A stretch of DNA of 64,000 nucleotides, taken from contig CBDCVR010000014.1 of assembly GCA_965223155.1 (NCBI GenBank), forward strand, positions 1,184,001 to 1,248,000, written 5' to 3'. A model generated the notes under the pieces. The model worked only from the letters and a program-made list of their open reading frames with translations. It made no database searches and was not told the origin of the DNA. Both the position numbers and the translations under genes were made by a program. Below are positions 51,220 through 53,197 of this stretch, one piece after another; the first letter of the stretch is position 1; each line of letters starts with the position of its first letter. The stretch comes from Candidatus Multivoradales bacterium (lineage in GTDB: Bacteria > Acidobacteriota > Thermoanaerobaculia > Multivoradales > JAHEKO01).

Positions 51220-51349
51220 CCAATCGCTGCACCGAACACCGCCCCTCACTTCGCTACACCGGGTGTAGGCTTCAGGTCAGTCGTTAGCTTCAACGAGTAG
51301 TTCTCGTTAGCGCAGGAGGCGGTGTCGGTGAGCTCAAGATCCATTAGCT
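51214..51349 (+). repeat. Integron attC site 2 (both cores mutated)
   Basis: Similar to attC1 (TCGCTGCACCG, GTAGTTCTCGTTAGC, GGAGGCGGTGTCGGTGAGCTCAA) but R'' is ATCTAGC and R' is ATTAGCT. Confidence 0.8.
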
Positions 51350-51352
51350 GGC

Positions 51353-51500
51353 GAGTTATCGTCAAATGTTGCGTACGGCTGACTCAGGCGGCGATCCGGT
51401 TCTTGGCTTCTCCGTCAACGAACTGGACTCCTCGGACAACGTTGGCCATTCGCCTGTAGCCCTGTAGACGGCGCCATCTTGTCTCGGCGCTCAGGCAGCA
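51353..51500 (-). pseudogene. IS256-family 3' remnant with terminal repeat
   Basis: AETRWRRLQG...VVRGVQFVDG...IAA*, followed by CCGTACGCAACATTTGACGATAACTC. Confidence 0.65.
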
Positions 51501-51606
51501 CGAAAAGCGGTGACAGATGAGATGAGTCGGTCGGTCTCCAGCTGGGACACTGTGCCAGTTGGAGATAACCAAGAATCGGCATCAGAGCCGAGAAAGGAGA
51601 CCGACC

Positions 51607-52620
51607 ATGGAGTATCTTGGCATCGATGTTCACTCGAAGTACAGCGAGGTGTGTGGCGTATCAGAAGACGGTGAGGTGACGGTTCGCCGGCGGGTTCCGA
51701 CGACCGAGACGGGCCTGCGAAGGTTCTTCGCCAATCGGGAACGCTCGCAGGTGACGCTCGAGAGCGGTCCGGTCACACCCTGGGTCTATCGACTGCTGTC
51801 TGAGCTCGGCCATGAGGTGATGGTGGTCAATCCACGCCGGGTACGTCTGATCGCGGAATCGACCCTGAAGACGGACGGAATCGACGCCGAGATCCTGGCT
51901 CGTTTGAGCCGGTTGGATCTGGGTTTGCTTCGACCAGTCTACCAGCGCACAGGTGAGGCCCAAGAGCTTCGGACGCGTCTTCGGGTCCGAACGAGTCTGG
52001 TGAAGACCAGGACCTCGCTGATCAACTCCGTACGCGGAACGCTGCGGGCACAGGGCTACCGAGTGCCCTCATGTCCGGCGAAGAGCTTCGTGGCTCGGTA
52101 CGCGTCGATGTCGGTCGAAGCCGGCCTGTTGGGAGCGCTCGAACCTCTGGTAACGACAATCGGCGAGCTGACCGATCGGATCCACCATCTCGAAGACGAC
52201 CTCATCTCCGAGTCGAGATCAAACGAGCTGGTCCGTCGGCTGCAGACGGTTCCTGGTGTGGGGCCTCTGGTGAGCCTTGCGTTCGTCGGCTGGATGGATC
52301 GTCCGGATCGGTTCGAGAAAAGCCGCGACGTCGGAGCGTGTCTGGGCTTGAGACCGTCGCTTCGCAGCTCAGGAGGGCATGAGGTCAGGGGCCGGATCAC
52401 TCGCGAGGGCGACTCGGAGATGCGCAGACTCTTGGTGCAGGCAGCTCATGCGGCGTTGAACTGTCGCAAAGAGTCGTCACTCAAGAGATGGGCTGAGGGC
52501 CTGGTCGAGAGGCTGGGTAAGGGCAAGGCCGTGGTCGCGCTAGCTAGGAAGATCGCGGTGTTGCTCCACAGGCTGTGGGTGACAGGTGAGAGCTTCCGAG
52601 CCTTTCCCAAGGCAGCGTAG
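51607..52620 (+). CDS. IS110-family DEDD recombinase/transposase
   Basis: GIDVH, LESG, KTDGIDA, TVPGVG, GL.P...SSG, RRLLVQAA, VALARK. Confidence 0.96.
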   Translation: MEYLGIDVHSKYSEVCGVSEDGEVTVRRRVPTTETGLRRFFANRERSQVTLESGPVTPWVYRLLSELGHEVMVVNPRRVRLIAESTLKTDGIDAEILARLSRLDLGLLRPVYQRTGEAQELRTRLRVRTSLVKTRTSLINSVRGTLRAQGYRVPSCPAKSFVARYASMSVEAGLLGALEPLVTTIGELTDRIHHLEDDLISESRSNELVRRLQTVPGVGPLVSLAFVGWMDRPDRFEKSRDVGACLGLRPSLRSSGGHEVRGRITREGDSEMRRLLVQAAHAALNCRKESSLKRWAEGLVERLGKGKAVVALARKIAVLLHRLWVTGESFRAFPKAA

Positions 52621-52649
52621 AAGAGATAACTAGACGACCAACAAGCAAG

Positions 52650-52815
52650 GACGGATTGAGAGGTTCGATGACTCCGAAAGTATCCTTGGTGGCCCCGACA
52701 CCGTGTGACAGATGGGAGCATCGATTCCTAAACGGACGCAAAACTCACCATGCACCGGTTCAAAGAAGAACCCTACAGAGTGCGAATAGAAGCTCGTCCC
52801 AAGCCTCGATCCAAA
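52650..52815 (+). ncRNA. Putative bridge/seek RNA of the IS110 element
   Basis: Two stem-internal loop-stem modules whose loop strands match the target and donor junction sequences; RNA ends approximate. Confidence 0.75.
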
Positions 52816-52911
52816 CCTAAGGAAAACTACAAAAAGAAGAAACGAAACTCTTGACGCCAACCGACCGACTCATAGAAGGATACTTATTCCGCTAGATCGA
52901 AGCCCTGAGAA

Positions 52912-53031
52912 TTGCGGCGCCACTCACGTACCGGCAGGCCGCTGGGATCGGAGCAGTTCGTCAAGGACCTCGAGCAAACGACCAAGAGGCGTCTTAGACC
53001 CCGGAAGGTCGGTAGGAAGCCAAGGGCCTAA
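52912..53031 (+). pseudogene. C-terminal remnant of a REP-associated (RAYT-like) Y1 transposase
   Basis: LRRHSRTGRPLGSEQFVKDLEQTTKRRLRPRKVGRKPRA*. Confidence 0.7.
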
Positions 53032-53197
53032 TGGGTAACCTGTCACCGATTTACGCCAATTGCCAAGAGAAGGAGCAATTGAGCGTAGAAGAGAGTCGCA
53101 AACAGGACCGATAGCCTCCGCATCGCTCCAATGCCGTGAACTAGATACTCGTTCCAGAGGTACCGTGGAATACGGAGCTCGATCGGGGCGCAGAAAA

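What the first reader, a model, noticed from the sequence alone, without database searches (positions are those of the whole stretch)
52650..52815. Readable bridge/seek RNA whose guides match the element's own target and donor
Seen: removing the IS at the AG cores (51515-16, 52877-78) gives the target AAGTATC-CT-GTCAC on the minus strand. In the 3' non-coding region, AAGTATCCT (52678-86) equals the left half plus core, and GTGACAG (52705-11) is the reverse complement of core plus right half. They form an internal loop between an outer stem TCGATG(A)CTCC/GGAGCATCGA and an inner hairpin TGGTG/CACCG. A second loop (stems GGACG/CGTCC, GCAC/GTGC, GGTTC/GAACC) carries ATAGAAG (52786-92), a perfect match to the circle junction, and AACTCACCA (52742-50), a 6/9 match to the other donor half. 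Established: IS110/IS1111 recombinases are RNA-guided, with the RNA downstream of the gene in IS1111 members. Inference: a complete, probably uncatalogued programmable recombinase with a CT core.
Basis: partly seen in the sequence, partly recalled or inferred. Interest (0 to 1): 0.8.

Follow-up and report, generated by a model that had tools for sequence, protein, structure and literature searches.

The report
IS1111-type insertion sequence bridge RNA
This is a recently active mobile element of the known IS1111 (IS110-family) type, whose non-coding 3' region encodes a guide RNA that spells out both the element's genomic target and its own joined ends, so it is a well-documented new member of a known class and not a new kind of system.

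Summary
Window 51517-52878 is a 1362-bp IS110-family element of the IS1111 type. The genome carries 14 near-identical full copies, one copy split by another IS, and two copies of an 81%-identical sibling.

- **Target:** All 15 occupied sites read GGTGAC-AG|IS|GAT(A/G)C. Two loci also exist as empty alleles whose flanks abut exactly.
- **RNA:** The 3' non-coding region (about 52649-52799) folds into a structure backed by strong covariation across 29 homologues (94.8% of cells paired; 22 of 30 pairs with compensatory changes).
- **Guides:** The two target guides change in step with the flanks in seven close relatives and 17 distant ones. The right donor guide covaries with the right end. Support for the left donor guide (6/9 match) is modest.
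- **Correction:** The stem closing the second loop is more likely the upstream GGACGG (52649-54) pairing with UCGUCC (52794-99), a terminal helix enclosing both loops.

No RNA data were available. Bridge/seek RNAs of IS110/IS1111 elements have been published since 2024, so this is a new member of a known kind. One lead remains open: three sibling elements insert an AG-core donor into AC-core targets.

The parts
51509..51516 (+). Left flank: target half GGTGAC plus core AG (51515-16)
   Evidence: Identical in 15 of 15 occupied sites. The RNA segment 52705-11 has the same sequence.
51517..52878 (+). The insertion sequence (1362 bp, counting one copy of the AG core at its right end)
   Evidence: 14 full copies at 99.9-100% identity, one copy split by another IS, and two copies of an 81%-identical variant. 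Empty alleles define the ends.
51522..51535 (+). Left subterminal inverted repeat ATGAGTCGGTCGGT, preceded by the 5-nt terminal extension ATGAG (51517-21)
   Evidence: 14-bp exact inverted repeat with 52860-73.
51607..52620 (+). Transposase/recombinase gene (337 aa)
   Evidence: Pfam PF01548 (E 8.5e-25) and PF02371 (E 4.5e-21). NCBIfam NF033542 'IS110 family RNA-guided transposase', 241 bits against a cutoff of 140. D7, E52, D90, D93 and S255-G256 align with the DEDD and Ser-Gly residues of IS621/ISCro4.
52649..52799 (+). Bridge RNA, long form (151 nt), closed by terminal helix P1 (GGACGG 52649-54 with UCGUCC 52794-99)
   Evidence: Covariance models R1/R2. Across 29 homologues, 94.8% of cells are paired and 22 of 30 pairs show compensatory change. 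P1 is 90.7% paired, with 5 of 6 pairs compensatory. The true RNA ends are not known.
52665..52724 (+). Target-binding arm: outer stem 52665-75/52715-24 and inner hairpin 52687-91/52699-703
   Evidence: Outer stem: 8 of 10 pairs with compensatory change. Inner hairpin: 3 of 5.
52678..52686 (+). Left target guide (LTG) AAGUAUC-CU, complementary to the + strand of the right flank AG-GATACTT
   Evidence: 9/9 match here. It changes with the right flank in relatives: own match 6.92 of 9 against 4.0 when flanks are permuted, 0/2000.
52705..52711 (+). Right target guide (RTG) GUGAC-AG, same sequence as the left flank plus core
   Evidence: 7/7 match here and in all 6 close-family RNAs scored (GUGACAG, GUGCCAG and GUUCCAG each match their own flank). 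Own match 6.22 of 7 against 3.9 permuted, 0/2000.
52742..52750 (+). Left donor guide (LDG) AACUCAC-CA, a 6/9 match to the left end read on the minus strand (ATCTCAT-CT)
   Evidence: CUCA/CCCA/CCUUA/UCCA in the RNA follow ATGAG/ATGGG/ATAAGG/ATGGA at the left end. The permutation support is weaker: 0/2000 with all rows, 2/2000 without L026, and 121/2000 for distant rows only.
52752..52783 (+). Donor-side stem GCAC/GUGC (52752-55/52780-83) enclosing hairpin GGUUC/GAACC (52757-61/52768-72)
   Evidence: Hairpin: 5 of 5 pairs compensatory. GCAC/GUGC: 1 of 4 (GCGC/GCGC variant); the rest are invariant.
52786..52792 (+). Right donor guide (RDG) AUAGA-AG, same sequence as the right end plus core
   Evidence: 7/7 match here. 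AUAGAAG, AUGGAAG, ACAGAAG and AUAGAAA each match their own right end. Own match 6.85 of 7 against 6.08 permuted, 0/2000.
52851..52856 (+). TTGACG, a -35-like hexamer just upstream of the right inverted repeat
   Evidence: CTTGAC is conserved in all close relatives. Read directly, in a circle it would lie 18 nt upstream of GAAG|AT, which spans the junction. Its function is inferred only.
52860..52873 (+). Right subterminal inverted repeat ACCGACCGACTCAT, followed by AGA plus core AG (52877-78)
52879..52885 (+). Right flank: target half GATACTT
   Evidence: GAT(A/G)C in 15 of 15 occupied sites; positions 6-7 vary.

Best explanation
Window 51517-52878 is an intact, recently active insertion sequence of the IS1111 group of the IS110 family. 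Its DEDD/serine recombinase is guided by a roughly 150-nt RNA transcribed from the 3' non-coding region on the coding strand.

The RNA has a terminal helix enclosing two arms.
- **Target-binding arm.** Its internal loop carries AAGUAUC-CU, which pairs with the + strand of the future right flank plus core, and GUGAC-AG, which pairs with the minus strand of the future left flank plus core. Together they specify the REP-like site GGTGAC-AG-GATAC.
- **Donor side.** AUAGA-AG and AACUCAC-CA pair in the same two-strand manner with the abutted right and left ends of the excised circle.

Recombination at the shared AG (CT on the other strand) inserts the element without a target duplication.

What is shown here:
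- the element and its copies;
- the exact target and the empty alleles;
- the conserved RNA structure;
- the co-variation of three of the four guide segments (LTG, RTG, RDG) with their DNA partners, with only modest support for the fourth, the LDG.

What is inferred from the published IS621, ISEc11 and related systems:
- that the RNA is made, probably co-transcribed with the gene from a junction promoter and then processed;
- that it binds the recombinase;
- that the serine (S255) and the DEDD residues carry out strand exchange through a circular intermediate.
For: (1) **Copies and sites.** There are 14 full copies (12 at 100%, 2 with a single difference), one split copy and two copies of an 81% variant. 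All 15 occupied sites read GGTGACAG|IS|GAT(A/G)C.

(2) **Empty alleles.** Flanks of the C11 copy and of the split C7 copy map contiguously onto C14 at 574424/574423 and 366092/366093.

(3) **Unoccupied targets.** The genome holds 17 further exact GTGACAGGATAC sites. My own arithmetic expects about 0.5 by chance.

(4) **Protein.** It matches PF01548 and PF02371 and NF033542, and shows PDB homology to ISCro4 and IS621 (E 3e-10 and 6e-10) with the catalytic residues aligned.

(5) **Natural reprogramming.** In the sibling variant, one MAG and five metagenome contigs (78-86% aa identity), the LTG and right flank change together:
- AAGUAUCCU with GATACTT;
- GAGUAACCU with GCTACTC;
- GAAAUGGGU with AC-CCGTTTC;
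- GAAGCCUCU with AGGCTTC;
- GAAGUGGGU with AC-CCACTTC.

The RTG equals the left flank in 6 of 6 RNAs scored. The donor-side segments and the IS ends stay constant.

(6) **RNA family.** A covariance model built from the close family finds the RNA downstream of the gene in 27 of 42 further loci at E<0.01.

(7) **Structure.** In 29 aligned sequences, 94.8% of cells are paired against 72.9% in shuffles, and 22 of 30 pairs show compensatory change. No shuffle (0/500) and no slid version comes close.

(8) **Strand.** U-G pairs, for example 18 of 27 at pair 43/125, fit the + strand only.

(9) **Copies of the RNA.** All 17 copies in the genome lie inside IS copies.

(10) **Guide order.** It agrees with the published IS1111 seekRNAs.
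Against: - No RNA evidence was obtained. No listed sequencing run is on record as RNA.
- No sigma-70-like promoter was found in 51400-53000.
- Folding energy is not better than shuffles, and the opposite strand folds at least as well (z -1.42).
- The left donor guide matches only 6/9. Its covariation signal is weak among distant homologues (121/2000).
- In ISEc11 a short RNA holding only the target matches sufficed for movement (PMC11187229), so a donor-binding role for the second part is not proven for IS1111 members.
- The homologues are related to one another, so the permutation counts overstate independence.
- The alignment used for the pair counts was fitted to the model structure.
Confidence: 0.9

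Rival explanations
1. Only the first arm is a functional guide (a short seekRNA). The second part (52734-52799) is a scaffold or processing signal, and the element's ends are recognised by the protein through the subterminal inverted repeats. The matches to the circle junction would then be incidental or reflect shared ancestry of the sequence.
For: The LDG matches 6/9 only, and its permutation signal is weak among distant rows (121/2000). In ISEc11 the 82-nt RNA with the target matches supported movement better than the 154-nt form, and the role of the long form was left open (PMC11187229, passages). IS1111 members have long inverted repeats that IS110-type elements lack.
Against: The RDG follows the right end through four states (AUAGAAG, AUGGAAG, ACAGAAG, AUAGAAA), with 0/2000 permutations reaching the observed match. 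LDG changes (CCUUA with ATAAGG, UCCA with ATGGA) follow the left end. The donor-side helices are kept by compensatory change. Durrant et al. report donor-complementary loops in IS1111 members (PMC11208160, passages).
Confidence: 0.08
2. No RNA is involved. The internal matches are target-like DNA carried inside the element (captured half-sites or protein-binding sites), and the conserved pairing reflects DNA cruciforms or chance.
For: No expression data. Folding z-scores are not significant, and the minus strand folds slightly better.
Against: The two half-sites lie on opposite strands, 18 nt apart, in the two sides of one internal loop. They change with the flanks in independent elements. U-G pairs are strand-specific. 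The protein family is experimentally RNA-guided (PMC11187229, PMC11208160, PMC11208158).
Confidence: 0.01
3. The element is a genuine IS1111-type element but is no longer mobile in this organism. The copies would be the product of a past burst, and the RNA is not currently made.
For: No circle-junction joint appeared in the contigs laid (contigs drop rare forms). No RNA run is listed.
Against: 12 copies are 100% identical and 2 differ at one position. Two loci are polymorphic (occupied and empty) within one assembly. The reading frame and catalytic residues are intact.
Confidence: 0.05

Closest known systems
IS1111-family elements with seekRNA (ISEc11, ISPa11, ISKpn4, ISPst6; Siddiquee et al. 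2024, PMC11187229)
   Same: A DEDD transposase of about 340 aa with the GL-P----SG motif; subterminal inverted repeats with short terminal extensions; the long non-coding region downstream of the gene. The guide complementary to the top strand lies 5' of the guide for the bottom strand. The long RNA form is about 150 nt. There is no target duplication, and relatives show natural reprogramming.
   Different: Different target (GGTGAC-AG-GATAC in a REP-like repeat) and a different host lineage (the closest named relative is an Acidobacteria MAG). Protein relation to those named elements was not measured here. Expression and activity are untested.
IS621 bridge RNA and recombinase (Durrant et al. 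2024, PMC11208160; Hiraizumi et al. 2024, PMC11208158; PDB 8wt6)
   Same: There are four guide segments (LTG, RTG, LDG, RDG), each including a 2-nt core that reads CT in the frame used for IS621. The LTG is 7+2 nt and the RTG 5+2 nt. The catalytic D, E, D, D and S-G residues are conserved. It targets REP-like repeats. LD position 7 tolerates mismatch there and is mismatched here.
   Different: The RNA lies at the 3' end, not the 5' end, and the guide order relative to the gene is reversed. A terminal helix encloses both arms here, in place of the 5' stem-loop followed by the two loops described for IS621 (passage). The inverted repeats are long (14 bp). Protein similarity is distant (E 6e-10).
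REP-targeting IS110-family elements of Pseudomonas putida (ISPpu9, ISPpu10; PMC12288879 and bioRxiv 10.64898/2026.03.19.712850, search listings only)
   Same: Multi-copy elements inserted into repeated extragenic palindromic sequences, with a small RNA gene beside the transposase gene.
   Different: I saw only the abstracts. No solo RNA copies exist here: 17 of 17 RNA copies lie inside IS copies, whereas ISPpu9's Ssr9 has extra copies.

Membership tests
IS110 family, IS1111 group | DEDD (RuvC-like) N-terminal domain plus the family-specific C-terminal Tnp domain | tested here: met
   PF01548 E 8.5e-25 and PF02371 E 4.5e-21; NF033542 at 241 bits against a cutoff of 140.
IS110 family, IS1111 group | Catalytic D, E, D, D and the Ser-Gly of the GL-P----S(t)G motif | tested here: met
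   D7, E52, D90, D93 and GLRPSLRSSG with S255-G256 align to the IS621/ISCro4 chains. The residue roles come from PMC11208158 and the motif from PMC11187229.
IS110 family, IS1111 group | Subterminal inverted repeats of 7-17 bp with short terminal extensions | tested here: met
   14-bp exact repeat 51522-35 / 52860-73, 5 nt from each end. The 7-17 bp range is from PMC11208160.
IS110 family, IS1111 group | Longer non-coding region downstream of the transposase gene | tested here: met
   90 bp upstream against 258 bp downstream of the ORF.
IS110 family, IS1111 group | Sequence-specific insertion in one orientation without a target-site duplication | tested here: met
   15 of 15 sites. Two empty alleles abut exactly with a single AG.
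IS110 family, IS1111 group | Circular intermediate with abutted ends | tested here: inconclusive
   No joint appeared in the contigs of four runs. Contigs drop rare forms, so this says nothing either way.
Bridge RNA / seekRNA | Structured RNA encoded in the non-coding end, with helices kept by compensatory change | tested here: met
   94.8% of cells paired, 22 of 30 pairs compensatory, 0/500 shuffles.
Bridge RNA / seekRNA | Two loop segments matching opposite strands of the target, overlapping at the core, and covarying with the target | tested here: met
   9/9 and 7/7 matches here; 0/2000 permutations for both segments.
Bridge RNA / seekRNA | Two loop segments matching the donor (circle junction) and covarying with the ends | tested here: met
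   The RDG criterion is clearly met (7/7 match, 0/2000). The LDG only partly meets it (6/9 match; 0-2/2000 with all rows, 121/2000 for distant rows only).
Bridge RNA / seekRNA | RNA is transcribed and bound by the recombinase; guide changes redirect insertion | not testable with these tools
   No RNA run is listed. This needs bench work.
Any Rfam 15 family | Match to a curated covariance model | tested here: not met
   Only three chance-level hits (E 0.62-6.4, far below the gathering scores) in 51300-53100, none in the RNA region.

The most novel reading that the evidence does not exclude
In this clade the donor and the target need not share the full 2-nt core.

- **Guide and junction.** Three sibling elements (the variant-B copy at C15:372322 and metagenome loci L053 and L055) have a left target guide ending in GU, not CU. 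In all three the left junction reads AG and the right junction reads AC.
- **Empty sites.** The genome holds unoccupied GTTCC-AC-CC(C)TTTC sites.
- **Reading.** An AG-core donor appears to enter an AC-core target. In all three cases both junctions carry the sequence expected for the product of exchange of the strand that corresponds to the IS621 'top' strand. The RTG's AG would then act like a handshake guide for the donor-derived core.

This would mean either a one-base effective overlap or a resolution that follows one strand.
Probability: 0.3. Interest if true: 0.5.

Novelty: new member of a known kind. Interest (0 to 1): 0.3.

Why it matters
RNA-guided IS110/IS1111 recombinases are being developed as genome-writing tools, and few IS1111-type members have been worked out. 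This element comes with unusually complete natural documentation:
- 15 identical-target insertions;
- occupied and empty alleles of the same loci;
- a sibling in the same genome with re-written target guides but unchanged donor guides and ends;
- a family alignment that fixes the RNA structure and three of the four guides firmly, the left donor guide (LDG) more tentatively.

This makes it a ready candidate for bench characterisation from a lineage (its nearest named relative is an Acidobacteria MAG) not represented among the characterised systems. For annotation, it shows that the 258-bp 'non-coding' tail is a gene. It does not change what is known about the class.

Tried and rejected
**Searches that gave nothing useful**
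- Rfam 15: nothing relevant.
- Promoter and terminator scan of 51400-53000: 0 promoter-like sites, and one terminator-like site on the minus strand inside the left end (no more than in shuffles).
- Single-sequence folding: energies are not better than shuffles on either strand, so thermodynamics neither supports nor decides the strand.
- Sequencing runs: no RNA holder listed.
- Laying contigs of four runs: no joints and no circle junction. Depth over the IS is about 12 times that of the flanks, in what may be the source sample. No support either way for expression or circles.
- Genome-contig scan: only one close relative. The metagenome scan gave six, two of them truncated before or within the RNA.
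- ISfinder could not be consulted, so 'uncatalogued' is untested.
- Supplementary files of the papers were closed. Durrant's Supplementary Table 5 and Siddiquee's supplementary figures might already list or draw this RNA architecture.

**Readings considered and rejected**
It is 66.0% paired, against 90.7% for the terminal helix (the alignment was fitted to the terminal helix). In a free best-helix test it does no better than permuted tails (4.0 against 3.93, 202/500). The 5' partner does better (5.29 against 4.59, 0/500). In this one element both pairings remain possible.
- I considered that the tandem flank repeats in the metagenome contigs were assembly artefacts. I rejected that as the sole cause, because the same pattern occurs in the long contigs of this genome.
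- I considered an alternative register for the left donor guide on the inverted repeat (ACUCA with ACTCA). Distant homologues with ATGGG ends favour the terminal register.

**Unpublished genomes**
Row L026 comes from unpublished genome G152. It is included, and the permutation test was repeated without it. G024, also unpublished, appears only as a listed match.

Full report
**The element.** The ORF 51607-52620 (+) encodes a 337-aa protein.
- It matches Pfam DEDD_Tnp_IS110 and Transposase_20.
- It matches the NCBIfam equivalog 'IS110 family RNA-guided transposase' (241 bits, cutoff 140).
- Its nearest solved relatives are the ISCro4 and IS621 recombinases (E 3e-10 and 6e-10). D7, E52, D90, D93 and S255-G256 align to the DEDD and Ser-Gly residues. 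Hiraizumi et al. show those residues to be catalytic (passages).

A 14-bp exact inverted repeat lies 5 nt inside each end, at 51522-35 and 52860-73. The non-coding stretch is 90 bp before the gene and 258 bp after it. These are the features that Siddiquee et al. (sections 6, 9 and 13 and passages) and Durrant et al. (passages) use to define the IS1111 group.

**Copies and target.** The window's genome is 4.0 Mb in 15 contigs. It holds the following:
- 12 copies identical to window 51517-52878;
- 2 copies with one difference each (a substitution at 52533; an extra A near 52816);
- 1 copy split by an unrelated 1369-bp IS;
- 2 copies of a variant that is 81% identical;
- a 40-bp fragment of the left end.

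All 15 occupied sites of the main variant read GGTGAC-AG on the left. On the right they read GATAC (14 sites) or GATGC (1 site); the next two positions are free.

For two copies on small contigs, the two flanks map onto the large contig C14 side by side, at 574424/574423 and at 366092/366093. The same loci therefore exist both empty and occupied in this assembly.

Seventeen further exact GTGACAGGATAC sites are unoccupied; by my own arithmetic about 0.5 would be expected by chance. They sit in a repeated, partly palindromic sequence family, as is usual for REP-targeting members of this IS family.

**The RNA matches.**
- AAGTATCCT (52678-86) is the reverse complement of AG+GATACTT.
- GTGACAG (52705-11) equals the left flank plus core.
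- ATAGAAG (52786-92) equals the right end plus core.
- AACTCACCA (52742-50) matches the left end plus core, read on the minus strand, at 6 of 9 positions.

**Natural reprogramming.** The strongest test came from relatives: the sibling variant in the same genome, one Acidobacteria MAG (85% aa) and metagenome contigs (78-86% aa). In these the RNA is alignable base for base, and the guide positions change exactly as the flanks do.

| Left target guide (LTG) | Right flank |
|---|---|
| AAGUAUCCU | GATACTT |
| GAGUAACCU | GCTACTC (8/9) |
| GAAAUGGGU | AC-CCGTTTC (8/9; 9 counting rU:dG) |
| GAAGCCUCU | AGGCTTC (9/9); AGGTTTC in a second contig (rG:dT) |
| GAAGUGGGU | AC-CCACTTC (9/9) |
| GAAAAGGGU | AC-CCTTTTC (9/9, read); AG-CCTTTCC (7/9) |

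The right target guide (RTG) is GUGACAG, GUGCCAG or GUUCCAG. It equals the left flank in 6 of 6 RNAs scored.

The donor-side segments and both IS ends are invariant in this close family. That is what a bispecific guide predicts when only the target is re-written.

**The wider RNA family.** A covariance model built from six close sequences, using the undisputed helices only, found one match at E<0.01 in 27 of 42 further loci. Each match lies downstream of a transposase only 30-45% identical to this one.

On an alignment of 29 sequences:
- 94.8% of cells form standard pairs, against 72.9% in shuffles and 31-45% in slid controls;
- 22 of 30 pairs show changes on both sides;
- all five measures exceed 500 of 500 shuffles.

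Two caveats apply. The alignment was fitted to the model, and the sequences are kin.

U-G pairs (18 of 27 at one pair) fit the coding strand only.

For 16-26 loci whose ends I could locate by the inverted repeats, each guide matched its own DNA better than the DNA of other loci. Mean matches were:

| Guide | Own | Permuted | Permutations reaching own (of 2000) |
|---|---|---|---|
| LTG | 6.92 | 4.0 | 0 |
| RTG | 6.22 | 3.9 | 0 |
| RDG | 6.85 | 6.08 | 0 |
| LDG | 5.62 | 5.18 | 0 |

Without the one row from an unpublished genome the result holds. With distant rows only, the LDG falls to 121/2000.

The LDG assignment rests mainly on CUCA, CCCA, CCUUA and UCCA following ATGAG, ATGGG, ATAAGG and ATGGA at the left end. 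The base next to the core and the second core base are usually mismatched. Durrant et al. report that LD position 7 is the mismatch-tolerant one in IS621 (passage).

**A correction to the structure.** GGACG occurs twice. Across distant homologues the 3' tail pairs with a segment upstream of the target arm, with covariation:
- CGCC/GGCG
- UGCC/GGCA
- CACC/GGUG
- UUCC/GGAA
- CUCC/GGAG
- CGGC/GCCG

The evidence is as follows:
- The terminal helix is 90.7% paired, with 5 of 6 pairs compensatory.
- In a register-free test, the 5' partner beats permuted tails (0/500) and the middle partner does not (202/500).
- The minimum-energy fold of 52647-52801 also closes with 52649-54/52794-99.

The RNA is therefore best drawn as a terminal helix enclosing the target arm and the donor-side stem-loop. 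The donor guides then lie in the junction between them.

**How it most likely works.** This part is inferred from the published systems. The junction of the excised circle would bring the conserved TTGACG (52851-56) 18 nt upstream of GAAG|AT, which spans the joined ends. A junction promoter of this kind is reported for the family (passages). The gene and the RNA would be co-transcribed and the RNA processed. The recombinase-RNA complex pairs the four guides with both strands of target and donor and exchanges strands at the AG/CT core through a phosphoserine intermediate.

None of this was observed here. No RNA run was listed, and contigs showed no circle junction.

**Novelty.** Bridge RNAs and seekRNAs of IS110/IS1111 elements were published in 2024. 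Durrant et al. state that a bridge RNA was predicted in 93.0% of ISfinder IS1111 members, in the right end. NCBI's own family model already names the protein RNA-guided.

This particular clade has no close relative among:
- 400 genomes sampled from its phylum (44% aa or less);
- the 5000 best plasmid records (all below 60% identity, the listed top rows 36-37%).

It is therefore a new member of a known kind. Whether ISfinder lists it could not be checked.

**An open lead.** In the three elements whose LTG ends in GU, the left junction reads AG and the right junction reads AC. Unoccupied GTTCC-AC-CC(C)TTTC sites exist in this genome. This suggests that donor and target cores differ at one base, and that both junctions keep the product of one particular strand. 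Three cases are too few to test it.

Noticed in passing
G000 C7:11414-12782; also C14:571680-573048, C11:5667-7035, C13:299689-301056, C15:374678-376045; window 51356-51496: A second, unrelated 1369-bp IS with five full copies. It encodes a roughly 400-aa transposase that looks IS256-like; that label is recalled, not tested. One copy splits a copy of the IS1111-type element, with about 10 bp repeated at the break. A 141-bp, 89%-identical fragment of its end lies about 20 bp left of the element in the window.
   Followed up: partly
Left flanks of occupied and empty target sites genome-wide (e.g. C14:303470-303511, C15:715708-715749); loci L053, L054, L057: 11 of 32 target sites carry a tandem duplication of 8-15 nt (at most 1 mismatch) ending 0-5 nt before the core, against 210 of 20000 random positions. 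Some of the 32 are the same locus on two contigs. In metagenome relatives L054 and L057 both flanks show such 16-nt duplications that include the half-site. The cause is unknown: it could be slippage in REP-like repeats or a footprint of recombination.
   Followed up: partly
G000 C11:2530-4691 vs C14:574024-574851; C7:10045-13586 vs C14:365693-366393; C7:3700-5861 vs C14:359349-361509: The small contigs C7 and C11 are alternative versions of regions of contig C14 that differ by presence of the IS (two loci) or share it (one locus). The sequenced population is therefore polymorphic for insertions.
   Followed up: yes
G000 C13:299287-299326 (locus L016/L019): A solo, inverted 40-bp left end with its own GGTTCC-AG flank lies about 60 bp after the right end of a variant-B copy. 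It is a remnant of another insertion.
   Followed up: no
G000 C15:372322-373688; loci L053 and L055; empty sites at zero-based start offsets 185511 (+ strand), 1144104 and 1146312 (reverse-complement strand) of C14, as listed: In elements whose left target guide ends in GU, the right junction reads AC while the left junction reads AG. Unoccupied sites with an AC core exist. Donor and target cores seem to differ at one base.
   Followed up: partly
window 53035-53046 (minus strand): An unoccupied near-target, GTGACAGGTTAC (one mismatch, in the left-target half), lies 157 bp to the right of the element in inverted orientation. The guide of relative L050 (GAGUAACCU) would match this variant.
   Followed up: no
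window 52653-52660 with 52805-52812: GGAUUGAG can pair with CUCGAUCC just outside the modelled RNA (minimum-energy fold). L054 keeps it as GGAUCG/CGAUCC, the variant-B RNA weakens it, and L055 lacks the 3' part. It competes with the terminal helix for G52653-54. It may be an alternative or precursor conformation.
   Followed up: no
window 52851-52856 and the ends 52875-78 + 51517-18: CTTGAC is conserved in all close relatives and TTGAC-like sequence in several distant ones, just upstream of the right inverted repeat. In a circle it would sit 17-18 nt from GAAGAT, formed across the junction, giving a possible junction promoter.
   Followed up: no
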